Shown here piece by piece: positions 1 through 23,555 of a stretch of 54,535 nucleotides of DNA. Position 1 is the first letter of the stretch, and the number at the start of each line of letters is the position of its first letter. The stretch is from a virus (taxonomy: Duplodnaviria > Caudoviricetes): IMG/VR virus record IMGVR_UViG_3300043430_000111, positions 1 to 54,535 of that record; one strand, given 5' to 3'. Under the pieces are notes generated by a model. The model did no database searches, was not told where the DNA came from, and worked only from the letters and a program-made list of their open reading frames with translations. The position numbers were made by a program, and so were the translations under genes.

Positions 1-176
1 GTGACGTGCTCAGGGCTCAGGGCTCAGGGCTCAGGGCTCAGGGGCTCGGCGTGACGTGCTCAGGGCTCAGGGGCTCAGGGGCTCGGCGTGACGTGCTCAG
101 GGCTCAGGGCTCAGGGGCTCGGCGTGACGTGCTCAGGGCTCAGGGGCTCGGCGTGACGTGCTCAGGGGCTCAGGGG
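1..176. repeat. Nested tandem repeat: GTGACGT(GCTCAGG[G])n..GGCTCGGC units
   Basis: GTGACGTGCTCA at 1, 51, 88, 124 and 153, separated by variable numbers of GCTCAGG/GCTCAGGG heptamers. Confidence 0.95.
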
Positions 177-425
177 AGGGGGTATGGTTCAACAAAAGCG
201 CCAAAAACTGACAGAAACGGACAGAAAACCGGCCGGAAGATGCATAGAGTGCTCAATTTTCGAGCAAAAAAGGGGAAAAAATAGGGGTTAACCCCTAGAA
301 AATACCCCCACGGGTATGAAAAATCACCCACCACGGGAACAAGGCCCCACCACACCCGTCGCTCGAAAAACCACCACCCCCTCGATCCCAGGCTCGCGCC
401 ACCAGCGTACAGCACGCCGCGCAGA

Positions 426-4665: not shown

Positions 4666-4844
4666 CCGACCTCCCCCGCCGCACCGTAGCGGCACAGGTA
4701 GAGCTTGGCGCACAGGCGCACAAAGGTGATGTCTTCTCGGTACTTCTCAACAAGCCCATCGTAATCTGGGCTGTTGGGACTGTCGGCCTCGGCCGCAGCG
4801 ATGCGGGTTTCTTCGGCAACGAAGTCTTCAAAGGAAGGTGTCAT
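4662..4844 (-). CDS. Small hypothetical protein coupled to primase
   Basis: 60-aa ORF whose stop overlaps the primase start (ATGA). Confidence 0.6.
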   Translation of the reverse strand: MTPSFEDFVAEETRIAAAEADSPNSPDYDGLVEKYREDITFVRLCAKLYLCRYGAAGEVG

Positions 4845-4940
4845 GGGCTGGCGGGCCTTTGGGTTACGCCCTCTGGTGGGGACCGTTCAAAAGCGCCAGC
4901 CCTCCCTCGTGCTCAGAACACGAGGTGAACGGCCCCCACC
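4845..4940 (-). promoter_or_regulatory. Structured 5' leader (nested hairpins plus possible pseudoknot)
   Basis: 4875-4889 pairs with 4926-4940; 4905-4911 pairs with 4919-4925; 4894-4902 is complementary to 4845-4853. Confidence 0.55.
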
Positions 4941-4987
4941 GCAGGACTCTGAGGTAGGTGTCTTGTAGGCTGGCTGCGACAATTCTA

Positions 4988-5003
4988 TGTCGCAAACGCC
5001 AAA
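4988..5003. promoter_or_regulatory. Putative operator (degenerate 16-bp dyad)
   Basis: TGTCGCA-AA-CGCCAAA; part of a 21-bp exact repeat shared with 42597-42617; adjacent to a minus-strand TAGAAT. Confidence 0.5.
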
Positions 5004-5013
5004 CGCCAGTTAC

Positions 5014-5283
5014 TTACATCAGAACGCTGTCGTCAATTGGCAACGGGCACATGGTCGCCAATTCTTCGATGCTGATCTTTGGCACTCGCCCGCGTGTGCG
5101 GGCGTGCATGACGGCAATAGCCTCTACGATGCGCAGCCCCTTGAGTAGGGTGGTGCCTGTACGCTCGCATCCCGCGAGTTGGTAGAGGTAGTTGCGCTTT
5201 GTACCCGACATGCGGGCCAACTCGTTCTGTTCATCCACGGTGCACCGACGTAGGACTTCGAGCAGCGGGGTGGGCGTTTTCAT
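5014..5283 (-). CDS. Cro-like HTH protein
   Basis: QNELARMSGTKRNYLYQL HTH; divergent from the repressor-like gene. Confidence 0.7.
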   Translation of the reverse strand: MKTPTPLLEVLRRCTVDEQNELARMSGTKRNYLYQLAGCERTGTTLLKGLRIVEAIAVMHARTRGRVPKISIEELATMCPLPIDDSVLM

Positions 5284-5293
5284 GCTTTACAGT

Positions 5294-5307
5294 TTCGCAT
5301 TTGCGAA
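5294..5307. promoter_or_regulatory. Putative operator palindrome
   Basis: TTCGCA-TT-TGCGAA between divergent HTH genes; recurs at 20946 and 54379. Confidence 0.65.
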
Positions 5308-5376
5308 GCCTATTTACAACCCTGCGCCTAAATGGTAATGTTGCTGAACACATACGCGCGTAATGGAGAGCACCAA

Positions 5377-5805
5377 ATGGACAACAGACTCATCAACCTT
5401 CGGGAGATCGTGCGACAGCGCGGTGGCGTGTCTCAACTGTCGCGGGACATGGGCTACAGCAACCCTTCGTTCCTGTCGCAAATGCTCGGGCCGAACCCAA
5501 CGCGGCTGGTGACGGAGAAGACGGCTCGCAAGTTCGAGAAGCTGCTAGGCATCCCTCTCGGCACGCTCGACCGCGAACCGGGTGAGGCGGCTCAGGCGCC
5601 GGTTGACGCAAGCGTGCAGCACAGCACCTCGGAGATGGTGGCGCACGTCATCCGTGTGGTCGGCAGAGCGTGCGACGAAGAATCTGCCCAGCCGAACACG
5701 GAGAAGTTCGCCAACGCGGTGGCACTGGCTTACCTAGATGCCGCGGAGCACGGCGGGCAGGTTCGGGAGGATCACGTCAAGCAGTTGGTGCGTCTGCTCA
5801 AGTGA
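5377..5805 (+). CDS. CI-like HTH repressor (no S24 peptidase domain evident)
   Basis: GGVSQLSRDMGYSNPSFLSQML...EKTARKFEKLLG; GGAG RBS before 5377. Confidence 0.75.
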   Translation: MDNRLINLREIVRQRGGVSQLSRDMGYSNPSFLSQMLGPNPTRLVTEKTARKFEKLLGIPLGTLDREPGEAAQAPVDASVQHSTSEMVAHVIRVVGRACDEESAQPNTEKFANAVALAYLDAAEHGGQVREDHVKQLVRLLK

Positions 5806-6088
5806 GTCGGCGGATGGCGTTTTCACACTGCCCTACCGGGTACGCACCCACTCGGTCTTGAACGATGGCACCGATACGCTCACATTCGCGCGCTGCGGCA
5901 TCGACACCGGCCTGCCAGCCCCACCACGCCGCGTTGAACATCTGCACACCATAGTTGCCGTTCTCGTCTTTCCAGAACAGAGCATCGGGGGTGCCATCTC
6001 CTTCGGCGTTGTGGTCTGTTTTGCCAGCGGCTTTTCGCTGCAAATAGTGCTCGTATGCGGCCTTCTCGAAGGCTTGTCGGTTGCTCAT
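5798..6088 (-). CDS. Hypothetical phage protein
   Basis: RQAFE...AWWGWQA motif typical of small phage early proteins; coupled to upstream gene. Confidence 0.75.
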   Translation of the reverse strand: MSNRQAFEKAAYEHYLQRKAAGKTDHNAEGDGTPDALFWKDENGNYGVQMFNAAWWGWQAGVDAAARECERIGAIVQDRVGAYPVGQCENAIRRLT

Positions 6089-6321
6089 ATCTTCTCGCTT
6101 TCAACCTTGAGGATCACGCTTTTTGCTGTCGTGTAAGCCTCCCTCGCCCGATCTAATTTTGTCTCGACGTAGTTGCGACCGTAAGAGCCGGCCTGCTTGA
6201 AGTATTCAGCCTCCACCATTTGGAGTGCCATCTTCAATGCGACAAGCAACTCGTCACGTTGTTGCTGCAACCTAGCGATCCGGCTGCTTTGCTGCTGCGT
6301 GGTTGACATCGGTCTGATCAT
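6085..6321 (-). CDS. Hypothetical protein
   Basis: ATGA overlaps with neighbours; QRDELL coiled-coil motif. Confidence 0.7.
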   Translation of the reverse strand: MIRPMSTTQQQSSRIARLQQQRDELLVALKMALQMVEAEYFKQAGSYGRNYVETKLDRAREAYTTAKSVILKVESEKI

Positions 6322-6524
6322 TGGACCTCCTGCGGGTCAAATATCGGCATGGGGTGGTAGTGGGTAAAGAACCCGCTGCTGTCCACAGTGCCGATGGATG
6401 CGCTCTTGGCTTCGCGGTTGATGAGGAAGCACTTCACCCCTCGCGGGGTATCTGAGGTGATCGGCTTCCAGTACGTCTTTGGGTCAACCAAAGCCGTGTG
6501 CGTTGAGTCTAGTTTTTCAGTCAT
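6318..6524 (-). CDS. Hypothetical protein (W-PI--TP-G..THY-P-P type)
   Basis: Coupled ORF with a DUF551-like phage motif. Confidence 0.7.
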   Translation of the reverse strand: MTEKLDSTHTALVDPKTYWKPITSDTPRGVKCFLINREAKSASIGTVDSSGFFTHYHPMPIFDPQEVQ

Positions 6525-6649
6525 GACTGGTTGGGTGTGTAAGGGTGGTCAGGTTCTGGTTGCGGGTATTCTTCCGGCGCATCCAGTTCGTCGTCGCGGT
6601 CGTCTTGCCAGCGGCGGCTCCATGCCGCTTTTGTGTCGGGCTGGCTCAT
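6521..6649 (-). CDS. 42-aa hypothetical protein (not in the ORF track)
   Basis: MSQPDTKAAW...YTPNQS*, with ATGA overlaps on both sides. Confidence 0.6.
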   Translation of the reverse strand: MSQPDTKAAWSRRWQDDRDDELDAPEEYPQPEPDHPYTPNQS

Positions 6650-6804
6650 GGCTTCGGCTCCTTCAGAATCTGCGCTTCCAGCCACGTCACCATGCTGCGC
6701 AGATCGTCATGCAGGTAATCGGGGAGTCGGTTTCCGCTGGAAAGGCCCCACGACTCAAGCGCACTCAGCAGGCGCATCTGGGCGAGTATGTATTTTTTGT
6801 CCAT
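6646..6804 (-). CDS. Hypothetical protein
   Basis: MDKKYIL... ORF coupled to the downstream gene. Confidence 0.65.
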   Translation of the reverse strand: MDKKYILAQMRLLSALESWGLSSGNRLPDYLHDDLRSMVTWLEAQILKEPKP

Positions 6805-6856
6805 GTGTGCTTTCTGTGTGGATGGCCCAGTGAGGGCCATCGTTATCAGGCGGTTT

Positions 6857-6879
6857 GTGACGCCTAATAACGGTTAGGC
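6857..6879 (+). mobile_element. Minimal R-box hairpin / cassette insertion point (attI- or attG-like)
   Basis: GCCTAAT-AACG-GTTAGGC; the GTTRRRY core at 6873-6879 starts cassette 1. Confidence 0.65.
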
Positions 6880-7179
6880 CCTAACATCCCTGCGCACTGC
6901 GGCACGCATCTGTGCCGCGCCATCGGCAATCGTCACCTCACCAAGGCAGTGAGACAGCGCGCCCGTCAGACCGCTTTGCATGGGCATCGTGAGCATTGCC
7001 ACGCGGGCCAGCAGCTCAGGCAGCGGCACTTCAAAGCCGTCGCCAAGATCAACGATGGATTCACAGGCCTGCTGCGACATCTCGAAGTAGGCGTCATCGT
7101 CACTGCGGATGTGCTCGGGGTACAGCAGGCGCAGCAACTCGTGCATTTCCAGATCGTCAAGTGGGTGCGGTTTCTTCAT
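6874..7179 (-). CDS. Cassette 1 hypothetical protein
   Basis: 101 aa; GAGAGGA RBS; TAA stop inside the GTTAGGC core. Confidence 0.85.
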   Translation of the reverse strand: MKKPHPLDDLEMHELLRLLYPEHIRSDDDAYFEMSQQACESIVDLGDGFEVPLPELLARVAMLTMPMQSGLTGALSHCLGEVTIADGAAQMRAAVRRDVRA

Positions 7180-7208
7180 GTTGGTCCTCTCGTCGTTGTG
7201 GCTGCATG

Positions 7209-7262
7209 GCCTAACCGTTCGCTCAAGCGGACGCAGAGCGCCGCTTAGCTGTCTGGTTAGGC
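7209..7262 (+). mobile_element. attC site 1
   Basis: GCCTAAC-CGTTC-GCT(C)AAGCGG(A)CGC-AGA-GCGCCGCTTAGC-TGTCTG-GTTAGGC: R''/L''/L'/R' boxes with two extrahelical bases. Confidence 0.92.
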
Positions 7263-7631
7263 CCCAAACGCATCGCGTCGCATCTCTTCATGCCACTCGG
7301 CCCGCCGATCGTCTTGACGGAGCGATGCCGCGTCGGGCTCGTGCAACTCGGGGGGTTGAAGTTGTGCGCTAGACCATTCTTCGGCGTCAAAGTCGGCCAG
7401 TTCTTCGGCGTGTTCTTCGGCGCCATGCGGCCACTCGATGACTTGCGCTTTGCATTGGTCGACGGTCACCGCCCACTGAGACAATTTCTCGGGGTTTTTG
7501 TCGAAGAACCCCTGCATGTCCTTGTTGTGGCGCGCCGCCATGTGTTCGGCCATGGCGCGGCTTGGTGCAGCGTGAAGATCATCAGGACCGGGGATGCGAA
7601 TGCACCAGAGTCCTTCTGTTGTTTGGTTCAT
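7257..7631 (-). CDS. Cassette 2 hypothetical protein
   Basis: 124 aa; GAGAGGA RBS; TAA stop inside the R' box of attC1. Confidence 0.85.
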   Translation of the reverse strand: MNQTTEGLWCIRIPGPDDLHAAPSRAMAEHMAARHNKDMQGFFDKNPEKLSQWAVTVDQCKAQVIEWPHGAEEHAEELADFDAEEWSSAQLQPPELHEPDAASLRQDDRRAEWHEEMRRDAFGA

Positions 7632-7660
7632 GTCGTTCCTCTCGTCGTTGTGGCCACCAG

Positions 7661-7717
7661 GCCTAACCGGGCGCTCAAGCGGACGCCTTCGGCGCGCGCT
7701 TAGCTGTCTGGTTAGGC
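7661..7717 (+). mobile_element. attC site 2
   Basis: GCCTAAC-CGGGC-GCTCAAGCGGACGCC-TTC-GGCGCGCGCTTAGC-TGTCTG-GTTAGGC. Confidence 0.9.
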
Positions 7718-7975
7718 GTCACTTGGCTTGCCGCCGCATCGCTCACTCATGCAGTACGTCAAGCGGCCTAGTTCCGTCAAGCCGTAGCCTTCCACGGTGC
7801 AGGGCAACGGTCCATTCATGCGTTCGGACACCTTGCGCAACAGACCATCAGCTACCAACGCATCGGCGCGCTTCTTGGCCTTGGTCTGCATCATGTATAG
7901 CGGGCTCTTGTTCATGGCCGCTTCAACTTCCGCCGAAAACGCCCGTTCAAGAAGGTCAAGGTCTTTGCTGTTCAT
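7712..7975 (-). CDS. Cassette 3 protein, possible winged-helix
   Basis: 87 aa; ADALVADGLL...YGLTELGR resembles a wHTH wing; GAGG RBS; stop in the R' box of attC2. Confidence 0.8.
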   Translation of the reverse strand: MNSKDLDLLERAFSAEVEAAMNKSPLYMMQTKAKKRADALVADGLLRKVSERMNGPLPCTVEGYGLTELGRLTYCMSERCGGKPSDA

Positions 7976-8002
7976 CGGTTTCCTCTTCGTTCATCACGTA
8001 AC

Positions 8003-8057
8003 GCCTAACCGCCAGTTCAACCGGACGCCAAGGCGCCGGTTAACTTATTGGTTAGGC
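8003..8057 (+). mobile_element. attC site 3
   Basis: GCCTAAC-CGCCA-GTT(C)AACCGG(A)CGCC-AA-GGCGCCGGTTAAC-TTATTG-GTTAGGC; compensatory changes relative to attC1. Confidence 0.92.
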
Positions 8058-8330
8058 CTCAGGGTCCGTGGCGGGGTTGCTGAAGAAACCGTCATCGCGC
8101 GGGGTCTGGCCCTCCGGCATGATCTTTGTGGGAAAGCCTGCTGCCTGGCACTCAGCGGCCTCATCAAGCGCGTCTTGCGGCGGTTTGGCTGGACATAGAT
8201 GCGCCGAGTTCATTTCCCAGTCGGTGCCCAGTTCCTCGATACCGCAATTGCTGTCAATCCACACCACGAACAGCAAAGGCCTTTCCGGCCGTTTGGTAGT
8301 CGTCGGTTGCTTCTCAATGACGTGGTTCAT
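8052..8330 (-). CDS. Cassette 4 hypothetical protein
   Basis: 92 aa; AGGAG RBS; stop in the R' box of attC3. Confidence 0.8.
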   Translation of the reverse strand: MNHVIEKQPTTTKRPERPLLFVVWIDSNCGIEELGTDWEMNSAHLCPAKPPQDALDEAAECQAAGFPTKIMPEGQTPRDDGFFSNPATDPEA

Positions 8331-8430
8331 CTGGCTCCTATCCGGCCCACTCCGTGAGCCTCCGAATCAAACGCTCGGCCTGGCGGCCCAGCTTGGTGTG
8401 GTGCCCACGGTGGGCGGTGTCGGTGGCATG

Positions 8431-8484
8431 GCCTAACCGGGCGCTCAAGCGGACGCAGAGCGCCGCTTAGCTGTCTGGTTAGGC
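8431..8484 (+). mobile_element. attC site 4
   Basis: Identical to attC1 except the 5-bp spacer (CGGGC). Confidence 0.92.
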
Positions 8485-8485
8485 G

Positions 8486-9454
8486 TTACTTGGCTGCGAG
8501 CATGGCGGCGCGGCAGGCGTTCCACCCCTCTGCATAACCTGCGGCCTGACCGGAACAGTAGTCGTACTCTGTGCCATCTTCAACGGGTGAGGCAATAGCG
8601 TCCGGCACGCTCGGCGCTGGGCGGGTGTATAGCTTTGTTCCTGGGGTCAGCAAGAGCCCTGTTTCAATGATGAACCCATCCCTGTCAACATAAGCCACCG
8701 ACGCACCCGTGGCGGGCTGCTGGGCCTCTGCCTGCGTGGCCTGGGCTGGCTGCGGGGTGGTGTAAATCTTGGTGCCAACAGGGGCTTCGTCTGCTCTGAA
8801 GCAGGCCATCGTGAAGCCCGATGTTCCCGGCATCGTGCCTACTTCACCAATAGGCTCACCCTGCACCTGAGAGCAGGCTTGCAGGGCGAAGGCGCACATT
8901 TGGTCGGCAGTGAAGCCTCGCAATGCTTGCGTACCCACAACGATTACGCCTTCAGGCTCTGGCAGCGGCGGCAGTTGGTTGGTGTCTTTCATCTCTCGCA
9001 TCTGGCGTGCAGAGAATGCAGGCTGATTGCTCTTGTCGGTCTTGATGTCGTGGTGGGCTTCTGCTGCCCATACGCCGCGCATGAATGTGCCTCGGTATCC
9101 ATACGACTTGCTCTGCTTCAGGTAGGCTTCACGGCGCTCATCATCTGTCATCGGCACCCGCTCAGGGCGCAGGGCAAGGATGGCGCGGGCGTAAGCACGG
9201 TGCGCCTGAAGCATTACGCCAATTTGTTCACCCCACTGCTCTACAGTTACGGCATCAATATCAGCATCCGTCACCCCTGCCCATTGTGGAGCGGCTGTGA
9301 GTGACAAAGATGCTTGTGAATCAGATTCGGCGTTCTGTGCTCCACAAACCAGCATGGCCTCCCGCATCTGGCGTGCAGAGAATGCAGGCTGATTGCTTAT
9401 ATCCGTCTTGATGTAGCCAAGATCAGGCTCAGGCAATTGGTTGGTGTCGGTCAT
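8486..9454 (-). CDS. Mosaic hypothetical phage protein with internal repeats
   Basis: NQPAFSARQMRE x2, DTNQLP x2, GTK(I/L)YT x2, C-terminal GWNACRAAML motif. Confidence 0.8.
   Translation of the reverse strand: MTDTNQLPEPDLGYIKTDISNQPAFSARQMREAMLVCGAQNAESDSQASLSLTAAPQWAGVTDADIDAVTVEQWGEQIGVMLQAHRAYARAILALRPERVPMTDDERREAYLKQSKSYGYRGTFMRGVWAAEAHHDIKTDKSNQPAFSARQMREMKDTNQLPPLPEPEGVIVVGTQALRGFTADQMCAFALQACSQVQGEPIGEVGTMPGTSGFTMACFRADEAPVGTKIYTTPQPAQATQAEAQQPATGASVAYVDRDGFIIETGLLLTPGTKLYTRPAPSVPDAIASPVEDGTEYDYCSGQAAGYAEGWNACRAAMLAAK
8997..9397. repeat. 35-bp exact direct repeat
   Basis: CGCATCTGGCGTGCAGAGAATGCAGGCTGATTGCT at 8997-9031 and 9363-9397. Confidence 0.9.
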
Positions 9455-9455
9455 G

Positions 9456-9653
9456 TCAAGCTCCGTTTGTTAAGTGAATGCCCTGCGGCAATGCCCTGCC
9501 GCGTTTGAGCTTTCCGTCGTCCAGGCGGGAAACCTCACCGTTGAAGGTGCTGAACCTGTGCAGGTTGGCGCACTCGTAGCGGCGGTACGTGCCCGCCTTG
9601 CGCTTGCGTGTCTCCAGCACCTCGACCCAGGCGTTGCACTTCGGGCAGTTCAT
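9456..9653 (-). CDS. Zinc-ribbon protein (NrdR N-terminal-like)
   Basis: MNCPKC...VLETR...RRYECANLHRFST. Confidence 0.8.
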   Translation of the reverse strand: MNCPKCNAWVEVLETRKRKAGTYRRYECANLHRFSTFNGEVSRLDDGKLKRGRALPQGIHLTNGA

Positions 9654-9895
9654 TGAATACTCCCGACCCACGCCCACAGCCACCCTCGGCCACCTCGCCC
9701 CGTGGGCTCGCGGGTGCCAACGATGCGAACGAGCTTGTGGTTCGACAGCGAGCGCAAGATGCGACCAACGCTGTAGCGGTGCGCGTCGGTGACCGGCAGA
9801 CCGAGATCGGTGCACAACTCAACGATGGTGTGGGGGCCTGTCAGAAGCAGGGTGATGATCCGCGATACGCGGTCGGCGTAACGGTGTTGGCTCAT
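9650..9895 (-). CDS. Putative winged-helix protein
   Basis: GPHTIVELCTDLGL...VGRILRSL; coupled ORF. Confidence 0.65.
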   Translation of the reverse strand: MSQHRYADRVSRIITLLLTGPHTIVELCTDLGLPVTDAHRYSVGRILRSLSNHKLVRIVGTREPTGRGGRGWLWAWVGSIQ

Positions 9896-11223
9896 ACCGC
9901 AACCTCCATCTTCACGAACGGATGGTGGCGGTATCCCTTGATGTGGAAGTCGTCCAACTTGTAGCCGTCGATGTCGGTGTTATCGGTGAGGATCACCAAC
10001 TGGGCCTCGTCACGGATGATGTCGCGCCCCAGAACCTGCCGCATCTTCTCGACGTGGTTTGAGTAGAGGTGCGCGTCACCGATGTCCACCAGCAGGCGGC
10101 GCGGCTTGAGGTTTGCGGCACGGGCGTACAGGTGCGTGAGCAGTGCGTAGGCAGCTACGTTGAACGGCAGGCCAAGAGCCACGTCCGATGAGCGCATGAA
10201 TAGCTTGAGGTCAAGGTGCCCGTCGTTGGACACGTAGCACTGGTGTGTGTGATGACATGGGGGCAGCGCCATGCGATCAAGTTCGCCAACATTCCATGAC
10301 GTGACAATGTGTCGGCGGCCATGGGGGTTGGTGCGAAGACCCTCGATGAGCGTCTTCACTTGGTCGAACTCCTTGCGTAGCGGTGTGCGAGAAACAAACT
10401 CAAAGCCGTCTCGCCTCTTAGCATTCTTGTTGCCGGTCCACAGATCGGAGAAGTTCTTTGGCTCAATTCCATGTTCATCACAGAACTCGCTCACGTTCGT
10501 AAAGGCGAACCCTTCACCATTGCGGCGCACCACGTAGAGCCACTCAGCCTTGGCCGACGCATTCTCTTTGTCACTCACGAAGCAACAGGTCTCAGGTGCA
10601 TACCTGAACCCGTCCCCGAGAATGTCCTTGTCCAAGACCTTGCGATAACGTCCGAGTTCGAGGCAGTAACCGGGCAAGTTGCTAAGGTCTCCTGCAAAGG
10701 CTCGGAACTCAAGCCAGCGGTCACAAACATGAACGCCTCTGGCTCCGTAGCTCTTATAACTGATGTTCTTCGGGTCGTAGCAACGACCCATCATGCCTTC
10801 CCAGGTCTTGCCAAAGCGGCTCTCACCCTTTCCAGCACCGTTGCCAATTCCAAGATAGGTCGCCTCAACGCCATCGCGCAGACGGGGCTTGGGTTGCGGG
10901 ATGTTGTCCGGCCTTGCGCCCCATCGACGCCAGTTGAATCCATACACAGGGCCGAGGTTTCCATTCTCATCAGCCCAGGCATCCCACAGCTTGCTACCGC
11001 GCTCGTTCAGCCACTTGACGTTTGTCTGTCCACTCAGGAAGAACAGCATCTCCAGGAATGCCGTCAGCCACCGCGTCTCCTTGGCCGTCACCAGGGGGAA
11101 GCGTTCGCGCAGGTCGAACTCCAGGTTGGCACCGAAGACGGCGAGGGTGCCGACTCCGGTACGGTCGTCGCGCAGCTCACCTTCCGCCAAGATGCGGGCG
11201 ACGAGGTTAAGGTACTGTTTCAT
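9892..11223 (-). CDS. thyA: Thymidylate synthase with in-frame HNH-like insertion
   Basis: DRTGVGT, FPLVT, LGPVYG, RRHIV, MALPPCH, RSSDVALGLPFN, GDAHLY motifs. Confidence 0.95.
   Translation of the reverse strand: MKQYLNLVARILAEGELRDDRTGVGTLAVFGANLEFDLRERFPLVTAKETRWLTAFLEMLFFLSGQTNVKWLNERGSKLWDAWADENGNLGPVYGFNWRRWGARPDNIPQPKPRLRDGVEATYLGIGNGAGKGESRFGKTWEGMMGRCYDPKNISYKSYGARGVHVCDRWLEFRAFAGDLSNLPGYCLELGRYRKVLDKDILGDGFRYAPETCCFVSDKENASAKAEWLYVVRRNGEGFAFTNVSEFCDEHGIEPKNFSDLWTGNKNAKRRDGFEFVSRTPLRKEFDQVKTLIEGLRTNPHGRRHIVTSWNVGELDRMALPPCHHTHQCYVSNDGHLDLKLFMRSSDVALGLPFNVAAYALLTHLYARAANLKPRRLLVDIGDAHLYSNHVEKMRQVLGRDIIRDEAQLVILTDNTDIDGYKLDDFHIKGYRHHPFVKMEVAV
10375..10914 (-). mobile_element. About 180-aa homing-endonuclease-like insertion in thyA
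   Basis: WEGMMGRCY...YGARGVHVCDRWLEF...LDKD...YAPETCCFV lies between YGFNWRRW and DQ, which are normally about 10 aa apart; boundaries approximate. Confidence 0.75.
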
Positions 11224-11226
11224 GCT

Positions 11227-11481
11227 TCACTTCGCTTTCTTGAGGGTTATTCGGAATAGGTAGCCTTTGCCACGGGGGCGGGGTAGACGTTCGAGCAGGC
11301 CCGCCGCGTCCAGGGTTTCGGTGTCCTGCCATATCGTGCAGTGCTTCGGGAGCACGCCTGTGATGTACTCGATCTCGGTCATCATGTCGTGGATCGACAG
11401 CGGGCGATCCGCTTGAAGCAGGATGTTGATGAGCAGGCACACGCGCTTGGCCGCTCCGACTGTGCGGTCTTGCTTGCTCAT
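11227..11481 (-). CDS. Putative HTH protein
   Basis: 84 aa; wHTH-like TIWQDTETL. Confidence 0.6.
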   Translation of the reverse strand: MSKQDRTVGAAKRVCLLINILLQADRPLSIHDMMTEIEYITGVLPKHCTIWQDTETLDAAGLLERLPRPRGKGYLFRITLKKAK

Positions 11482-11948
11482 GCTGCTTTCCCCAAGTTAC
11501 AAACGCCATCTCCGCGGGCAAGCCGCTTCTCTGTGCGGTGCTCGGCGTCTTCAATGAATCGCAGTGCGACGTTCTCGATGACCTGTGCGTACAGTGCGAG
11601 AAGCGCCTGCACAACCTCTTGTTCATCGGCTTCGAGCGCCGTGCGGCCGGTCAGTCTGCGACGACCGATCTCTTTGAGCGTGTCGCTGCTGACGGTGCAG
11701 AAGTCACGCGGCTGACCACCCAGCACACCGGGCATCGCGGACAGCGCCAGGATGAGGTTGTGCACACCGAGCACGGCGCGGAACTGCCCCTGGTCGGCGC
11801 GACCTTCGCACAGCGCATCAAACGCCGGCCGGAGAACAGTGAGCCGAGCAAGCTGGTCGTTGGTGGGCATCAGTGCGCTACCAAGCACAGCCACAGCAAC
11901 CGTGTCTGATCTGATTTGGCGCACCTTGCGGTGGCAGAACTTGCGCAT
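11478..11948 (-). CDS. Hypothetical protein
   Basis: Coupled ORF starting MRKFCHRK. Confidence 0.7.
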   Translation of the reverse strand: MRKFCHRKVRQIRSDTVAVAVLGSALMPTNDQLARLTVLRPAFDALCEGRADQGQFRAVLGVHNLILALSAMPGVLGGQPRDFCTVSSDTLKEIGRRRLTGRTALEADEQEVVQALLALYAQVIENVALRFIEDAEHRTEKRLARGDGVCNLGKAA

Positions 11949-12157
11949 CACAACCACTCCTGCAACAGGACCAAGCCGCGACCAAACAGATACCCTCCTG
12001 CGAATGCAGCGACCACCTTGAGCCACGTGCGACCACGCGGCGCGTCTTCTTCGAGCGGCCAGCCGAACGTCGAGAAGACGACGTGGTTTTCAACCTTAGT
12101 CGGATGCGGCAGCGGGTGGTTGCGCGCGTCGAGTTGTTCAATGAGTTCGTCGTTCAT
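11948..12157 (-). CDS. Hypothetical membrane protein
   Basis: C-terminal hydrophobic segment; coupled ORF. Confidence 0.65.
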   Translation of the reverse strand: MNDELIEQLDARNHPLPHPTKVENHVVFSTFGWPLEEDAPRGRTWLKVVAAFAGGYLFGRGLVLLQEWL

Positions 12158-12348
12158 TTGAAACTCACCTTCCGTTTACGTTTGGACATGGCCCCCAAGT
12201 CTCCGAGTGCCTGCTTGCGCACGGCCTCATCGCGTGATGCCAACTGCTGTTGGCGTTGAGCTGATCGCTTGGCCGAAATCTGCGCATCGCGCACCACGTC
12301 GGTCATGTCGATCTGCGCTTTGTAGTTCTTGTCAAAGGGGTTGCTCAT
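12154..12348 (-). CDS. Hypothetical protein
   Basis: MSNPFDKN...; GGAGG RBS, ATGA overlap. Confidence 0.65.
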   Translation of the reverse strand: MSNPFDKNYKAQIDMTDVVRDAQISAKRSAQRQQQLASRDEAVRKQALGDLGAMSKRKRKVSFK

Positions 12349-12653
12349 GCAGCCTCCTGCTTGCGACGTGCACGCAACAGGCGCATACGCTCGGTGTCTG
12401 TCATTGAGGGTCCGGGGCGCTCTGCGTCTGGGGCAGACCCCCAAGCCCACATCGGCACGATCAAGCGACCGGCGCAGTCGGCACCCCACGAGTGGATGTG
12501 CACCTGCTCGCGCATCTGGTTCATCCAGCGGCGGATTGATCGGTCTGGAATGCCGAACATCGCAGAGAGTTCGGTGTAGCTTGTCGGTACTGCCTGGAGG
12601 CGACTCACGATTCCTGCTGAGACCACCAGGGTCATGCGGGTGCGCTGTGTCAT
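12345..12653 (-). CDS. HTH-like hypothetical protein
   Basis: SYTELSAMFGIPDRSIRRWM. Confidence 0.7.
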   Translation of the reverse strand: MTQRTRMTLVVSAGIVSRLQAVPTSYTELSAMFGIPDRSIRRWMNQMREQVHIHSWGADCAGRLIVPMWAWGSAPDAERPGPSMTDTERMRLLRARRKQEAA

Positions 12654-12838
12654 GTCCGAGTACCTTTCAACAGAGCATCCAAACGGCGCACACGCGCCAA
12701 GTTGTAGCCCTCCATCTGTGTGTAGAACTCCTTGTTGCTCTGTGCAGTCAGCAGTTCGCGGCGTGCAAGTTCCAATTCGCGCTCGGCCAGTTGCTTTGCA
12801 TCCGGTTGTTTGAACAGTTGTGTCAGTTTGGAAATCAC
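12650..12838 (-). CDS. Hypothetical protein, first gene of the leftward operon
   Basis: 62 aa; AAGGA RBS. Confidence 0.7.
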   Translation of the reverse strand: MISKLTQLFKQPDAKQLAERELELARRELLTAQSNKEFYTQMEGYNLARVRRLDALLKGTRT

Positions 12839-12991
12839 GTTTTGTCCTTTGTTTGATTCGACGCTTACAAGTTTATGGCAACAATGCCAAACATTTCAAG
12901 CGTTTTGCTAAAACACAACACTTTGCTGTTGCGAAACGCCAAACGATGTTTACACTTCGTTTTGTCAACTTTTAGCAAAGGACGAAACGAA

Positions 12992-13660
12992 ATGTCTCTC
13001 GAACAGACCCTTGAACAAACCAACGCACTCTTGCAGCAAGTCATCACGATTTTGCAAACCGGCGTTTCGGCAGCTACTGAACTCGGCGCACCTGAAGTCA
13101 AGCAAACCCGTGCTCGCAAGACCAAGACCGACGAAGCGGTTGCTACTGAATCGACCTACTGGCTGATTGAAAAGCACAACACGGTCTACGAGCAAAAGGC
13201 CGGTGACTTCACACCGAGCATCGAAGGTGCCGTTGCCGTGACCAAGGAGGTGTACGACGCAAAAAAGGCTCAGTTCGCGGCCCTGGTGAAGACGGCTCCT
13301 GCTGCTCAGACCCAAGCCGCCACTGCCCCTACCTCGCCTACTGCCGAGGTGGTGGTGGACGCTGCGCCCGAGAAGACGGAAAGCGCACCGAGCCAAGCTG
13401 TCGCATCTGCGGAAGCCGCACCCCAAGCCTCGACTGCTGTTGACTTCCAGGCTGTCGTCTCTGCGATGACCGCGCTGTCCAAGAGCGACAAGCCCGGTCA
13501 CGGTCGTGACGGCGTACTTGCCATCTTGAAGAAGTACCTGCCCGGTGAAGAACGCCCGGTGGTGACCAAGCTGGCCCCGCTGAACAAGAACGCCGAGATC
13601 GTGGCCGAAGTCAACGCACTGTTGAACGCCGCCGAAGTCGAGTTCGATCCGCTGGGCTAA
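12992..13660 (+). CDS. Ala-rich conserved phage protein
   Basis: MSLEQTL...; AAGGA RBS; typical position before DUF2800. Confidence 0.85.
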   Translation: MSLEQTLEQTNALLQQVITILQTGVSAATELGAPEVKQTRARKTKTDEAVATESTYWLIEKHNTVYEQKAGDFTPSIEGAVAVTKEVYDAKKAQFAALVKTAPAAQTQAATAPTSPTAEVVVDAAPEKTESAPSQAVASAEAAPQASTAVDFQAVVSAMTALSKSDKPGHGRDGVLAILKKYLPGEERPVVTKLAPLNKNAEIVAEVNALLNAAEVEFDPLG

Positions 13661-21866: not shown

Positions 21867-22087
21867 TGGCCCAGCGCAACTACCCTGCGGGCGCACTGGT
21901 CCGGGTCAACGACATCTGCCGCAACCCCAAGACCGGCGCGGCCGGTATCCTACCGCTCGGCCGCTCCACGTGGTATCGCTGGATTCAAGAAGGCAAAGTG
22001 CCCGAGGGTGTCAGCCTCGCGGGCACGGCCACGAAGGTGTGGCCCATCGAGACTGTGCTGGCGCTCGCCGGTCAGGCCGACAACTGA
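21866..22087 (+). CDS. AlpA-type excisionase
   Basis: GILPLGRSTWYRWIQEGKVP; adjacent to the integrase. Confidence 0.85.
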   Translation: MAQRNYPAGALVRVNDICRNPKTGAAGILPLGRSTWYRWIQEGKVPEGVSLAGTATKVWPIETVLALAGQADN

Positions 22088-23271
22088 TCTATCCGGTCAG
22101 CCAGGAATTGCAGAGCACGCCGACGCTCGTCCGCGTGCTCTGCGTGCGTATAGGCGGCAACAACCGCACTGCGCTCCTGGTGTGACAGCAGCAACTCCAC
22201 CACCTCCCGCGAGAACCCGTGCTCACGCAGCAGCGTCGCCGCGGTGCTGCGCGTACCGTGTGGTGAGAACTGCGGCACCCCGAAGTTCAGCCGCTTGAAC
22301 ATGTGGTTGAGCGTGACTTCTGCGATGGGCCGACCATTGCCGTTCACAAAGCGCGTCGGGAAGACGTACTGACCGTGACCGGTGATCCGCTTGAGGTAGG
22401 TCAGCAACTCGACCGCCTGCCGAGACAGATACACCCGGTGGGGCTTGCCGTTCTTCATCCGTTCCTCGGGGATGTCCCACAACCCCTTGTCCAAGTCGAA
22501 TTCCGGCCACTCGGCCAGCCGCAACTCCGTCTTTCGCACCATCGTCAGCATGAGCAGCTTGGCGGCGTAGACCGTGATGATGGTCGCCTGCCGCTGACGG
22601 TTCAACTCCGTCCAGAACGCACCCAACTCCACCTCGCTCAAGTGCCGGTGGTGGGTGGCGGGCGGCACGGAGATGGCACCGCGTACTGCCGTCGCCGGGT
22701 TGCCGTCAACCAGCAGTTTGCGAATGGCGAAGTTGAAAACCTGCTGGATGAGTGATCGACACCGGTCTGCCGTGGTCGGGATGTGCTTGTTTGACTCCAT
22801 GATGGCGAGCACGTCGCGCGGCTTGACCTCGGTGAGTGCTTTGGCTCCGATGCTCGGGTTGATGTAGGAGTCCAGAAACCGGATGCACTGTGAGCGGTAC
22901 GCCTCCGACCGATAGAACAGCGTCTCCTTCACCCAGGTCTTTGCGAACGCCTCGAAAGTCGGCACGTCCGGCTCCGGCTCGCGCTCGGCCTTTTTCTCGT
23001 CAGCCGGGTCGATGCCGCGCGCCACGTCCGAGCGCAGCCGCTCATGGAGGGTTCGCGCATCCGCGATGCTGATCTGGGGGTACGGGCCGATAGTGAACTT
23101 GGGGCGCCGGCCCGCCAGCCGGTACGTGTACCTCCACACCTTCGAGCCCCCCGGCAGGACTTCCAGGTACAGCCCGCCACCGTCCGTGAGCACATAGGGC
23201 TTGTCTTTTGGCTTGGATGCGTTGATGACGGTCGGCTTGAGTGTGTAGTTGATGTGTCGTTGCTGTCCCAT
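22072..23271 (-). CDS. int: P4-type tyrosine integrase
   Basis: Arm-binding DGGGLYL...IGPYP; catalytic R (VRKTE), K, HGTR, LSH, Y; ATG at 23271. Confidence 0.95.
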   Translation of the reverse strand: MGQQRHINYTLKPTVINASKPKDKPYVLTDGGGLYLEVLPGGSKVWRYTYRLAGRRPKFTIGPYPQISIADARTLHERLRSDVARGIDPADEKKAEREPEPDVPTFEAFAKTWVKETLFYRSEAYRSQCIRFLDSYINPSIGAKALTEVKPRDVLAIMESNKHIPTTADRCRSLIQQVFNFAIRKLLVDGNPATAVRGAISVPPATHHRHLSEVELGAFWTELNRQRQATIITVYAAKLLMLTMVRKTELRLAEWPEFDLDKGLWDIPEERMKNGKPHRVYLSRQAVELLTYLKRITGHGQYVFPTRFVNGNGRPIAEVTLNHMFKRLNFGVPQFSPHGTRSTAATLLREHGFSREVVELLLSHQERSAVVAAYTHAEHADERRRALQFLADRIDQLSA

Positions 23272-23274
23272 TTT

Positions 23275-23555
23275 TGGCTCCACGATCTTTCCAGAGACCC
23301 CATTGTGGCACCATGCGCGCCGACCGTGGTGCCAACTATGGAGCCTTTGGAGCGGGATGGACATGGATTGTGTGGGACACCCAGGGACAAAAAAGCCAAC
23401 TGGAATCAACAAGTTGGCTCTTAAATGGGACAGTCTGGGATGCTCTGAAACGTCAACCAATGTGCTCGATCATGACATGTAAATTCACGATTTTGCTAGG
23501 AGAGGTTGTCGTTTTGATGCCAAATTACTGCGGCATGGAGCCAATCATGGAGCCA
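23275..23555. other. Candidate attP with arm-type sites
   Basis: RTGGWGCCW at 23326, 23338, 23535 and 23547 (two pairs, 12-bp period) and inverted at 23275 and 23306. Confidence 0.65.

What the first reader, a model, noticed from the sequence alone, without database searches (positions are those of the whole stretch)
6857..8495. Integron-type attC gene-cassette array embedded in a phage early operon
Seen: four 54-57-bp sites (7209, 7661, 8003, 8431) separate single ORFs. Each has R'' GCCTAAC, a 5-nt spacer, an L'' arm with extra C and A (the canonical extrahelical G and T on the bottom strand), a tiny loop, L', a 6-nt spacer and R' GTTAGGC. attC3 shows compensatory changes (GCT.AAGCGG/CCGCTTAGC to GTT.AACCGG/CCGGTTAAC). 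The base flanking the R boxes pairs within each reconstructed circular cassette (G/C for cassettes 1, 2, 4; extended GTAAC/GTCAC for cassette 3) but not in attC2-4 as they stand in the array. That is what recombination at G|TT predicts. Established: this is attC anatomy, normally described from bacterial chromosomes and plasmids. Inference: the phage has a shufflable accessory-gene platform.
Basis: partly seen in the sequence, partly recalled or inferred. Interest (0 to 1): 0.95.

Follow-up and report, generated by a model that had tools for sequence, protein, structure and literature searches.

The report
Reversed integron cassette array in phage
A temperate phage carries four genuine integron recombination sites between small early genes, but the genes point the opposite way to bacterial integron cassettes, which suggests that phages keep their own swappable cassette pool.

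Summary
Four 54-57-nt sites (7209, 7661, 8003, 8431) have full attC anatomy. A covariance model built only from attC sites of integron-integrase (IntI)-linked bacterial arrays hits all four (40.6-53.1 bits, E 6e-12 to 1e-8) and nothing else in the 54.5-kb phage.

The window is a complete temperate tailed phage without IntI, so the array is a CALIN (a cluster of attC sites lacking an integrase).

The same holds in 50 other IMG/VR contigs (198 opposite against 8 same flank calls). Bacterial arrays of the same attC family are canonical (154 same, 27 opposite).

Evidence for exchange at the R boxes:
- R boxes co-vary across cassettes (49 against 20 informative cases; 0 of 5000 permutations).
- Five syntenic relatives share a conserved anchor mini-site but none of the window's cassettes.
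- The cas1 gene sits beside different attCs in six other contigs.

Two related phage records encode IntI next to such reversed arrays. Cargo includes DNA methyltransferases and the CBASS inhibitor Acb3. attC arrays in phages are already published (Qi 2023). The reversed orientation and this phage family appear new. IntI catalysis is inferred, not shown.

The parts
6862..6879 (+). Anchor mini-site: an R''-like box, 4 nt, then an R' box (GCCTAATAACGGTTAGGC), with no L arms. It is the fixed left end of the array. The TTA of its R' box is the stop codon of cas1.
   Evidence: Weak R2 hit, 13.6 bits, E 0.18. The same site plus the downstream leader is conserved in L033, L049, L052, L053 and L211.
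6874..7179 (-). cas1 ORF, 101 aa, unknown function. Cassette 1 spans 6874-7256 (383 bp).
   Evidence: Codon LLR +0.238 per codon against -0.057 for the antisense ORF. Six homologs in IMG/VR contigs L205-L210, 66-95% identity, in different attC contexts. Contigs of 4 of 4 other metagenome runs cover it.
7180..7208 (-). Leader with ribosome-binding site (GCCACAACGACGAGAGGA) between attC1 and cas1.
   Evidence: The same leader precedes cas2 (7632-7660) and ORFs in L052 and L205.
7209..7262 (+). attC1 (the top strand is the + strand).
   Evidence: R2 51.3 bits, E 1.8e-11; - strand 20.3 bits; fold z -5.99.
7257..7631 (-). cas2 ORF, 124 aa, acidic, unknown function. Cassette 2 spans 7257-7711 (455 bp).
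   Evidence: LLR +0.107. 13 homologs, all unnamed. Contigs X5 record 21 and X9 record 32 start at 7255 and 7257.
7661..7717 (+). attC2.
   Evidence: R2 40.6 bits, E 1.3e-8.
7712..7975 (-). cas3 ORF, 87 aa. Cassette 3 spans 7712-8051 (340 bp).
   Evidence: LLR +0.158; phrog_2239, E 1.2e-6.
8003..8057 (+). attC3, with compensatory changes in the L stem.
   Evidence: R2 53.1 bits, E 6e-12.
8052..8330 (-). cas4 ORF, 92 aa. Cassette 4 spans 8052-8478 (427 bp).
   Evidence: LLR +0.216. Contig X12 record 7 covers 8051-8393 with 0 differences and has 61 unlike letters before 8051.
8331..8430 (-). Long non-coding leader between attC4 and cas4.
   Evidence: Similar leaders lie next to attCs in L009, L017, L027, L034, L039 and L052. 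Function not tested.
8431..8484 (+). attC4, the right end of the array.
   Evidence: R2 48.8 bits, E 8.2e-11.
8486..9454 (-). Backbone gene upstream of the array in the direction of transcription, 322 aa, unknown function.
   Evidence: ORF list; LLR +0.206. Its 3' end (GCAGCCAAGTAAC) also precedes an attC in L211.
6646..6840 (-). Backbone gene downstream of the anchor, 64 aa.
   Evidence: Homologs follow the anchor in 5 of 5 syntenic relatives, 53-89% identity.
12870..12899 (-). Promoter-like site that could drive the leftward operon holding the array.
   Evidence: Consensus scan, 9 of 12 matches. The region's total of 2 sites is no more than in shuffles (mean 2.3), so this is weak evidence.

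Best explanation
The four sites are genuine integron-type attC recombination sites. Together with a core-less anchor site they delimit four single-gene cassettes (383, 455, 340 and 427 bp) in the leftward early or accessory operon of a complete temperate tailed phage that has no integron integrase. The - strand is both the coding strand and the attC bottom strand. When single-stranded, it would fold into the hairpin with extrahelical G and T that IntI recognises. IntI would cut at GCCTAA|C, directly after each ORF's TAA stop codon. Cassettes would then be excised as circles and reinserted at another attC or at the anchor. The integrase would come from the host chromosome or from a co-resident phage of the same group. 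Unlike bacterial cassettes, each ORF is antisense to its attC top strand, so the attC and a ribosome-binding leader precede the gene. The array is therefore read from a phage promoter, not from an integron Pc promoter. SHOWN: family membership by sequence and structure; the reversed gene orientation; variable cassette content at a conserved locus; the R-box exchange signature; IntI next to such arrays in two related phage records. INFERRED: catalysis by IntI in this phage, the strand used, the timing, and the source of the enzyme.
For: 1. Membership.
- Model R2 was built from 14 attCs of five bacterial genomes. These attCs do not match the phage-derived pattern, and each genome has an IntI hit (5 of 5 genomes; 2 over the cut-off).
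- R2 scores the four sites at 53.1, 51.3, 48.8 and 40.6 bits on the + strand and 15.5-20.3 bits on the - strand. The next best hit in the window is 13.6 bits.
- R1 (34 sites) gives 33.1-36.9 bits.
- The bacterial model alignment has 8 of 11 L-stem pairs with compensatory changes.

2. Orientation.
- Codon LLR is positive for all four - strand ORFs and negative for all + strand ORFs.
- Flank calls in 50 IMG/VR loci (158 sites): opposite 198, same 8, ambiguous 100, no.
- The same test on 211 bacterial sites: same 154, opposite 27, ambiguous 229, no.
- In 42 bacterial cassettes the longest ORF is on the top strand in 38.

3. Exchange at the R boxes.
- In 111 phage cassettes the R'' box matches the R' box at the other end of the cassette better than its own: mean mismatches 0.85 against 1.39.
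- Of 71 informative cases, 49 favour the box across the cassette, 20 favour its own, and 2 tie. 0 of 5000 permutations reach the observed value.
- R' keeps GTT but departs from the consensus afterwards in 13 of 39 sites.

4. Variable content.
- Five syntenic contigs (L033, L049, L052, L053, L211) share the anchor and the downstream gene (5 of 5) but none of cas1-4 (0 of 5).
- cas1 homologs sit beside different attCs, a mini-site or no site in 6 other contigs.

5. Other metagenomes.
- Contigs from four other studies' metagenomes carry cas1, cas2 or cas4 and leave the window at 6872/6873, 7255/7257 and 8051.

6. Integrase.
- L013, a record rated 100% complete that has a portal gene, encodes a 341-aa IntI (461.8 bits, cut-off 265).
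- The phage-like contig G011:C33 encodes an IntI split into two ORFs (237 + 169 bits).
- In both, the attC top strand points away from intI while the ORFs read towards it.
- 10 of 10 bacterial genomes tested that carry this attC type have IntI hits: 7 at full length over the cut-off, 3 only as fragments below it.
Against: - No experiment shows recombination, and the window has no IntI.
- 0 of 5 other viral records with large arrays have IntI, though those records are only 33-75% complete. Only 1 of 79 viral sources has an IntI hit.
- The host is unknown. The closest capsid relatives in 401 genomes of the order of G011 are at most 52% identical.
- Breakpoints occur at both edges of the core. 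Pairs with left flank and core the same but right flank different number 16; pairs with the left flank the same but the core different number 14. Pairs are not independent.
- One site (L050:69) is a chimera of two core types. The canonical bottom-strand reaction does not predict either finding.
- The R-box covariation cannot tell a crossover in R' from one in R''.
- The bacterial arrays used for the models were found through a phage-derived pattern, so the models cover one attC type only. IntegronFinder's own model could not be run.
- No empty anchor site was found.
Confidence: 0.7

Rival explanations
1. The repeats are attC-derived but now act only as short homology blocks for the phage's own homologous recombination. 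Genes are shuffled without any integron integrase, as proposed for boundary sequences in mosaic phages.
For: The phage encodes an exonuclease and a Gp2.5-like single-strand annealing protein. Breakpoints occur on both sides of the core, and one core is chimeric. The cores are near-identical between unrelated contigs and are very abundant in other metagenomes.
Against: Homologous recombination needs neither a hairpin nor extrahelical bases, yet the stems are kept by compensatory changes. The R boxes co-vary across each cassette (49 against 20; 0 of 5000 permutations). R' changes directly after GTT in 13 of 39 sites. IntI genes lie next to such arrays in two phage records, in the canonical intI-attC geometry.
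Confidence: 0.15
2. The hairpins work mainly at the RNA level, as intercistronic processing, stabilising or translation-coupling elements of the operon. Their likeness to attC is incidental or ancestral.
For: One site lies in every intergenic gap of a co-directional operon, on the transcribed strand, each followed by a conserved leader with a ribosome-binding site. They fold strongly.
Against: No Rfam family matches. No terminator-like site lies on the - strand. The sites score 20-33 bits higher in the orientation antisense to the mRNA. An RNA role would not explain R-box exchange or variable content. An added RNA role is not excluded.
Confidence: 0.05
3. The array is a relic: cassettes were captured once by IntI and are now fixed and no longer mobile in this phage lineage.
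For: There is no IntI in the window, no empty site was found, and some relatives show decayed sites, such as the truncated attC in L208.
Against: All four sites have perfect R boxes and intact stems. cas1, cas2 and cas4 occur at 97-100% identity in other studies' metagenomes, in contigs that leave the window at the cassette borders. Cassette content differs completely among five syntenic relatives.
Confidence: 0.08
4. Artefact: a bacterial integron fragment mis-assembled into, or mis-binned as, a viral contig.
For: Some short IMG/VR contigs with many sites (for example L019, 4.5 kb with 12-13 sites) could be bacterial fragments.
Against: The window is one record rated 100% complete. It has terminase, portal, capsid, tape measure, tail, replication and integrase genes on both sides of the array. 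Four runs hold 96-99% of the words of this stretch. The gene orientation is unlike that of bacterial arrays.
Confidence: 0.02

Closest known systems
Integron attC sites (59-base elements) in bacterial chromosomal integrons, and CALINs (clusters of attC sites lacking an integrase; Cury et al. 2016, PMC4889954; Neron et al. 2022, PMC9024848; passages read)
   Same: R''/R' boxes fit RYYYAAC/GTTRRRY. There are L arms with two extrahelical bases on one arm, an asymmetric 5/6-nt spacer and a variable loop. Models of IntI-linked arrays detect the sites. The array holds single-gene units, has no intI nearby, and shows R-box exchange between neighbours.
   Different: The ORFs are antisense to the attC top strand (bacterial control: 154 same, 27 opposite). 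The sites are shorter (median 60 against 87 nt). The array sits in a phage operon and ends in a core-less anchor, not an attI.
Integrons and CALINs reported in phage genomes (Qi et al. 2023, PMC9892861; abstract and sections 2.1 and 3.4 read)
   Same: attC clusters occur in phages without intI. Methyltransferase cargo was noted there too. A few temperate phages carry complete integrons. IntI1 recombined 5 of 6 phage attCs tested.
   Different: That survey found 21 phages among 10,705 NCBI genomes (Vibrio, E. coli P1, Shewanella, Tetrasphaera, Polaribacter, Pseudoalteromonas). 'Betaproteobacteria' and 'Burkholderia' each occur 0 times in its main text. I found no statement there of reversed ORF orientation. 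Its supplementary tables could not be opened.
Reverse integrons of Treponema (inverted integron-integrase group; PMC7691350 and PMC4889954, passages read)
   Same: [quoted passage not shown]
   Different: [quoted passage not shown] Here intI is opposite to the attC top strand (the canonical relation) and it is the ORFs that are flipped.
Short two-extrahelical-base attC sites such as attCaadA7 (Nivina et al. 2016, PMC5027507; passages read)
   Same: Both have two extrahelical bases and are about 55-60 nt long. A 60-nt site of this build lies within 1.1 kb of intI in bacterial genome G004 (L176:402-461). The paper reports that sites with only two such bases choose the bottom strand less strictly, and that top-strand recombination occurs at R''.
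   Different: That weaker strand choice could explain breakpoints at both R boxes here. This is an inference and was not tested.
Promoter-stem-loop and boundary sequences that mediate modular shuffling in T4-type and lambdoid phages (recalled from memory; no paper was looked up)
   Same: Short conserved intergenic elements flank variable small early genes.
   Different: Those elements act by homologous recombination and carry promoters. The sites here have attC anatomy and R-box exchange, and no promoter consensus was found within the array on the - strand.

Membership tests
integron attC site | Inverse core and core boxes RYYYAAC ... GTTRRRY at the two ends | tested here: met
   GCCTAAC and GTTAGGC in 4 of 4 sites; 0 of 100 shuffles give any match.
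integron attC site | Imperfect inverted repeats (L''/L') that fold as single-stranded DNA, with extrahelical bases on one arm only and an unpaired central spacer | tested here: met
   Fold z -4.2 to -6.0. Unpaired C and A lie on the 5' arm of the + strand (G and T on the - strand). Spacers are 5 and 6 nt.
integron attC site | Structure conserved while sequence and loop length vary | tested here: met
   attC3 and many IMG/VR sites carry compensatory L-stem changes, and loops give site lengths of 45 to 127 nt. In the bacterial alignment 96.4% of cells pair and 8 pairs change on both sides.
integron attC site | Detected by an attC covariance model | tested here: met
   My own models from IntI-linked arrays: R1 33-37 bits, R2 41-53 bits. 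The IntegronFinder and HattCI models were not available, so that exact test was not run.
integron attC site | Recombined by an integron integrase at G|TT of R' on the bottom strand | not testable with these tools
   Indirect only: R-box covariation across cassettes, R' departing from consensus after GTT, and contigs leaving the window at the cassette borders.
canonical integron gene cassette | The ORF lies on the attC top strand, upstream of its attC, and is expressed from Pc | tested here: not met
   All 4 ORFs are on the opposite strand. 198 opposite against 8 same calls in 50 viral loci; the bacterial control gives 154 same against 27 opposite.
complete integron | An intI gene (TIGR02249) next to the array, with attI | tested here: not met
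   The window's only tyrosine recombinase is a P4-type integrase (Arm-DNA-bind_3; its best NCBIfam hit is not IntI) at 22072-23460. tblastn with IntI finds nothing in the window. The feature is met in the relatives L013 and G011:C33.
CALIN | At least two attC sites on one strand less than 4 kb apart, with no intI | tested here: met
   Four sites on the + strand within 1.3 kb; no IntI in the 54.5-kb record.
reverse integron (Treponema type) | [quoted passage not shown] | tested here: not met
   In L013 and L110 intI is on the strand opposite to the attC top strand.
intrinsic terminator or REP-like intergenic hairpin | A GC-rich hairpin followed by a T run on the transcribed strand | tested here: not met
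   No terminator-like site on the - strand in 4800-13200; no Rfam match.

The most novel reading that the evidence does not exclude
Phages of integron-bearing Burkholderiales-type hosts run 'mirror-image integrons'. Their cassette pool has each gene antisense to its attC, so each cassette carries attC, leader and ribosome-binding site ahead of the gene. The pool is read from phage promoters towards an anchor site or towards a phage-borne intI. It is exchanged among phages by the same integrase that shuffles the host's cassettes. The flip would keep the two pools mutually unexpressed: a phage cassette caught at a bacterial attI faces away from Pc, and a bacterial cassette caught in a phage array faces away from the phage promoter. 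Both pools would still share one recombination machinery. The phage pool would be a store of counter-defence genes (methyltransferases, Acb3), mirroring the defence cassettes of chromosomal integrons.
Probability: 0.4. Interest if true: 0.9.

Novelty: new variant of a known kind. Interest (0 to 1): 0.8.

Why it matters
Integrons are known as bacterial gene-capture devices. Recent preprints (search listings only) describe chromosomal and mobile integrons as stores of anti-phage defence cassettes.

If phages hold a parallel, mirror-oriented cassette pool, then both sides of the arms race draw on one site-specific recombination system. The pool seen here includes anti-restriction methyltransferases and an anti-CBASS gene.

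This would give:
- a concrete, testable route for rapid turnover of phage early accessory genes;
- a way to find new counter-defence genes, namely any small ORF between reversed attCs;
- a natural experiment on attC strand choice, because here the bottom strand is the non-template strand of an active operon.

It also shows that attC-based surveys which assume the canonical gene orientation will mis-annotate phage cassettes.

Tried and rejected
- Rfam at gathering thresholds: no match in the window.
- INPHARED phages, blastn of 5000-10000: only four 33-39-nt chance-like matches in Klebsiella phages.
- PLSDB plasmids, blastn of attC1: nothing below E 2.
- The search for related loci with the 322-aa backbone protein: no relative. 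With cas2: one partial 20-residue match.
- tblastn of 18 window ORFs against the first 170 loci: only the 64-aa backbone gene and one zinc-ribbon ORF matched.
- My first heuristic site finder was too strict and missed the window's own sites. The revised one recovers 67 of 162 model hits, all on the same strand. I used it only for the bacterial control.
- ESM Atlas on cas1: best scores 0.77-0.78, below the tool's lead level.
- cas2: 13 unnamed homologs. The AlphaFold2 model had mean pLDDT 71. Foldseek against the PDB gave no match below E 4.8. Function stays unknown.
- Pfam and PHROGs on cas1, cas2 and cas4: no family.
- Capsid search in 401 genomes of the order of G011: 27 with a match, best 52% identity, so no host could be named.
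- L069 was called 'opposite' but showed no clear phage genes.
- Read laying: parts of the stretch without cover in runs X5, X9, X12 and X13 (for example most of cas3) are not used as evidence of absence. The joints listed (such as 7202 to 8430 and 7685 to 8032) are readable as other attC variants and were not counted as excisions.
- No empty anchor site turned up among 5 pattern hits.
- The supplementary tables of Qi et al. 2023, which list all 17 phage CALINs, could not be opened. They may hold a related phage.
- Searches behind the statement that the reversed orientation is not in print: (full-text library only).


Full report
OBSERVATION. The pattern GCCTAAC-N20-50-GTTAGGC occurs four times in the window, at 7209-7262, 7661-7717, 8003-8057 and 8431-8484. 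It occurred in none of 100 shuffles. Read on the + strand, each site has:
- an R'' box;
- a 5-nt spacer;
- an L'' arm G[C/T]T-C-AA[G/C]CGG-A-CGC, whose C and A have no partner;
- a 3-7-nt loop;
- L';
- a 6-nt spacer;
- an R' box.

As single-stranded DNA the sites fold at -17.6 to -21.6 kcal/mol, z -4.2 to -6.0. attC3 differs from the others by paired changes that keep the stem. The base outside the R boxes pairs in 4 of 4 reconstructed circles and in 1 of 4 sites as they stand. A fifth, core-less site (6862-6879) closes the array on the left.

MEMBERSHIP.
- Rfam has no match.
Most are Betaproteobacteria MAGs such as Rubrivivax, Casimicrobiaceae and Rhodocyclaceae.
- In the five genomes with multi-copy hits, TIGR02249 (integron integrase) matched in 5 of 5. 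Two matches are full length at 488 and 482 bits. Three are fragments at contig ends or frameshifted.
- In all five genomes the arrays lie beside intI in the canonical divergent geometry.
- From these arrays I took only sites that do not match the phage-derived pattern and built two covariance models. R1 uses 34 sites with the RNAalifold structure. R2 uses 14 sites with a hand-set 18-pair structure.
- On the R2 alignment 96.4% of cells pair, against 81.7% in shuffles. Eight pairs change on both sides, and 0 of 500 shuffles reach the covariation score.
- R2 scores the four window sites at 53.1, 51.3, 48.8 and 40.6 bits (E 6e-12 to 1.3e-8) on the + strand and 15.5-20.3 bits on the - strand. The next hit in 54.5 kb is the anchor at 13.6 bits. 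R1 gives 33.1-36.9 bits.

So the sites belong to the attC family of IntI-linked arrays, and the + strand is the top strand. Two limits apply. The bacterial arrays were reached through a phage-derived pattern, so the models cover one attC type. IntegronFinder's own model could not be run.

CONTEXT.
- The window is a whole IMG/VR record of 54,535 bp, rated 100% complete, with GC 0.60.
- It encodes terminase, portal, protease, major head, tape measure and tail proteins.
- It also encodes primase, exonuclease, a Gp2.5-like annealing protein, DNA polymerase and helicase.
- It has a thymidylate synthase and a repressor-like protein.
- It has one tyrosine recombinase with an Arm-DNA-bind_3 domain. 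This is not an IntI.
- The array lies in a run of about 17 co-directional - strand ORFs between 12.5 and 5.8 kb, beside the divergent replication module. A promoter-like site lies at 12899-12870, and there is no terminator-like site on that strand.
- 'Early' timing is inferred from this position.

REVERSED GENES.
- A codon model trained on 14 long genes of the window gives +0.107 to +0.238 bits per codon for the four - strand ORFs and -0.05 to -0.62 for the overlapping + strand ORFs.
- cas3 matches phrog_2239. cas2 has 13 conserved homologs.
- Each - strand ORF has a ribosome-binding site and ends with the TAA formed by the TTA of an R' box.
- In canonical integrons the ORF lies on the top strand. 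In 42 cassettes of the bacterial arrays the longest ORF was on the top strand in 38, on the other strand in 3, and tied in 1.
- The phage-derived pattern also hit 50 IMG/VR contigs, in which R2 finds 158 sites.
- A coding-strand test on the 330 nt on each side of each site gave opposite 198, same 8, ambiguous 100 and no.
- The identical test on 211 sites in the bacterial loci gave same 154, opposite 27, ambiguous 229 and no.
- Pfam and PHROG hits confirm the opposite-strand ORFs: DNA methyltransferases, Acb3 and a DHH phosphoesterase.
- Phage sites are also shorter, with a median of 60 against 87 nt.
- In 37 of 85 phage cassette ORFs the stop codon is the TAA of the R' box.

EVIDENCE FOR SITE-SPECIFIC EXCHANGE.

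(a) R-box covariation. In 111 phage cassettes bounded by two model hits, I compared the R'' box on one side of the ORF with two R' boxes: the one on the other side of the ORF, and the one of its own attC. It is more complementary to the former. Mean mismatches are 0.85 against 1.39. Of 71 informative cases, 49 favour the box across the ORF, 20 favour its own attC and 2 tie. 0 of 5000 permutations reach the observed total. Examples are GTTATGC with GCATAAC, GTTGGGC with GCCCAAC and GTTAGAA with TTCTAAC. The bacterial control gave 16 against 10 of 27 informative cases. This is the classical cassette signature: part of an R box travels with the neighbouring unit.

(b) R' degeneracy. Among 39 sites anchored on the 5' arm, R' fits GTTRRRY in 23. 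It keeps GTT but departs afterwards in 13 (for example GTTCGAC, GTTCAAC, GTTAAAA). It lacks GTT in 3, one of which is cut by a contig end. Among 18 sites anchored on the 3' arm, R'' departs in 4, each by one base.

(c) Variable content at a fixed locus. The anchor and the leader of the 64-aa backbone gene are conserved in L033, L049, L052, L053 and L211. The backbone gene is present in 5 of 5 (53-89% identity) and cas1-4 in 0 of 5. Each relative has other cassettes there. L052 has three, and in all three the two R boxes that flank the ORF match, including a GTCTAAC/GTTAGAC pair.

(d) One gene in many contexts. cas1 has six homologs in other IMG/VR contigs, 66-95% identical:
- L207 and L210 have an attC upstream, and L208 has a truncated one.
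- L205, L208 and L210 have an attC downstream.
- L206 has a mini-site downstream.
- L209 has neither.
- L205 keeps only the GTTAGGC box plus the same leader upstream.

(e) Other metagenomes. Runs from other studies (wastewater, activated sludge, groundwater) hold 20-26% of the words of 6300-9300. I laid four of them on the stretch.
- Contigs cover cas1 in 4 of 4 runs, starting at 6872, 6873 or 6882.
- Contigs cover cas2 from 7255 (X5) and from 7257 (X9).
- A contig covers cas4 from 8051 to 8393 with no difference, after 61 letters that do not fit the window (X12).
- Two contigs join an attC 5' arm, through other loop and 3'-arm letters, to 6872. There, cas1 follows a full attC instead of the anchor.
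- These are short assembly-graph contigs, so they show presence and junctions, not absence.

SOURCE OF THE INTEGRASE.
- None of 5 further viral records with large arrays has IntI. Those records are 33-75% complete.
- tblastn with IntI against 79 viral sources found one hit, in L013.
- L013 lies in a 42,927-bp record rated 100% complete that has a portal gene. Its 341-aa ORF scores 461.8 bits on TIGR02249, whose cut-off is 265.
- The 38.6-kb contig G011:C33 of a Rubrivivax MAG carries portal, capsid, tail, tape measure and integrase genes. It also carries an IntI split into two ORFs (237 and 169 bits). The split is possibly an indel error of a long-read assembly.
- In both records the attC top strand points away from intI, as in any integron. 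All cassette ORFs are on the intI strand and read towards it.
- Both records share TAAC|TTGAATTC at the junction next to intI.
- IntI hits were found in 10 of 10 bacterial genomes tested that hold this attC type. Seven are full length over the cut-off and three are fragments below it.

COMPLICATIONS. Comparing sites between contigs, I counted:
- 16 pairs with the left flank and core alike but the right flank different;
- 4 pairs with only the right flank alike. Both of these classes mean a break at R'.
- 14 pairs with the left flank alike but the core different;
- 1 pair with the core and right flank alike but the left flank different. Both of these classes mean a break at R''.

The pairs are not independent: most of the 14 come from six contigs in which one methyltransferase gene with an identical leader follows four different cores. 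L050:69 joins the 5' arm of one core type to the 3' arm of another. The canonical bottom-strand reaction predicts only breaks at R'.

Nivina et al. 2016 (passages read) report that top-strand recombination takes place at R'', and that sites with only two extrahelical bases choose strands less strictly. That could account for both classes of break. Homologous recombination by the phage's own annealing system could also contribute. The covariation test in (a) cannot separate the two R boxes.

MECHANISM PROPOSED.
- Transcription runs leftwards through the backbone gene, then attC4-cas4, attC3-cas3, attC2-cas2, attC1-cas1, the anchor and the next backbone gene.
- Each unit is TTAGGC, the gene (antisense), a leader with a ribosome-binding site, and the attC up to its G.
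- The - strand is both the coding strand and the attC bottom strand, so it is exposed as the non-template strand during transcription and during replication.
- Folded, it would bind IntI and be cut at GCCTAA|C, directly after the stop codon.
- Excised circles could reinsert at any attC of a co-resident phage array or at the anchor.
- Family membership, reversed orientation, R-box exchange, variable content and IntI in related phages are shown here.
- Catalysis, strand choice, timing and any link to the SOS response are inferred. The SOS link rests on the known LexA control of many intI genes, which I recall and did not look up.

COMPARISON AND NOVELTY.
- attC clusters and a few complete integrons in phages were reported by Qi et al. 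2023. They found 21 of 10,705 genomes, and IntI1 recombined 5 of 6 phage attCs. The kind is therefore known.
- Treponema 'reverse integrons' have intI co-directional with the cassettes, but there intI is inverted and the ORF-attC relation is canonical. Here the ORFs are inverted.
- Six full-text searches found no description of a phage cassette pool with reversed ORFs, of the anchor site, or of this Burkholderiales-type phage group.
- Cargo in 86 cassette ORFs includes N6_N4 methyltransferases (5) and Acb3 (1; L039:5483-6340, E 7.6e-70, between two attCs). It also includes DUF1643, an AAA_33 kinase-like protein and HTH_17 proteins. The rest have no Pfam match at E 0.001 or better.

VERDICT.

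Noticed in passing
window 9892-11223 (- strand): The thymidylate synthase (443 aa) carries an in-frame insertion of about 140 residues (about aa 130-270). The insertion matches HNH endonuclease PHROG families (phrog_2081, E 1.9e-36), and the ThyA Pfam match is split into two stretches. It may be an intein-like or domain-inserted homing endonuclease.
   Followed up: no
window 1-196 and 426-499: The left genome end holds tandem units of 29-37 nt built on GCTCAGGG and GTGACGT. There is also an exact 29-nt direct repeat, 45 nt apart. These may be terminal or packaging-related repeats.
   Followed up: no
window 8331-8430; also L009, L017, L027, L034, L039, L052:6411-6506: A non-coding leader of about 70-100 nt lies between an attC and the next gene. 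It recurs with similar sequence in several unrelated phage contigs, always on the R'' side of an attC. In the direction of transcription it contains a hairpin followed by GTTT. Its function is unknown.
   Followed up: partly
window 7180-7208 and 7632-7660; L052:6829-6857; L205 upstream of 2501: A shared leader with a ribosome-binding site (GCCACAACGACGAGAGGA) follows the attC in front of unrelated genes. It looks like a portable attC-plus-RBS module.
   Followed up: partly
window 8993-9048 and 9359-9414, within ORF 8486-9454: The 322-aa backbone protein has an internal duplication: 56-nt repeats 91% alike, and the peptide DKSNQPAFSARQMRE occurs twice.
   Followed up: no
window 26601-27122, within ORF 26157-27965: Three copies of a unit of about 110 nt (71-95% alike) lie inside a 602-aa ORF next to the tail genes.
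   Followed up: no
window 7257-7631: cas2 and one homolog carry a C-terminal extension of about 30 residues that runs to the TAA in the R' box. The other 12 homologs end about 25-35 residues earlier. The gene appears to have been extended to the cassette border.
   Followed up: partly
L013:3578-4603 (IMG/VR record of 42,927 bp) and G011:C33 (L110:1204-2192): Two phage or phage-like records encode an integron integrase beside reversed cassette arrays. Both share TAAC|TTGAATTC at the junction next to intI.
   Followed up: yes
L050:69-124: A chimeric attC: its 5' arm is of the GCTCAAGCGG type and its 3' arm of the CCGGTTAAC type, so the L stem no longer pairs.
   Followed up: partly
L057 and L082 (G001:C2, 856-868 kb): A bacterial chromosomal integron holds 14 near-identical cassettes spaced about 296 bp apart, each with an 88-nt attC and only a 54-aa ORF. 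This looks like an amplified mini-cassette.
   Followed up: no
L039:5483-6340 (- strand): A full-length Acb3 (CBASS inhibitor) homolog (E 7.6e-70) lies as a single cassette between two attCs in a phage contig.
   Followed up: partly
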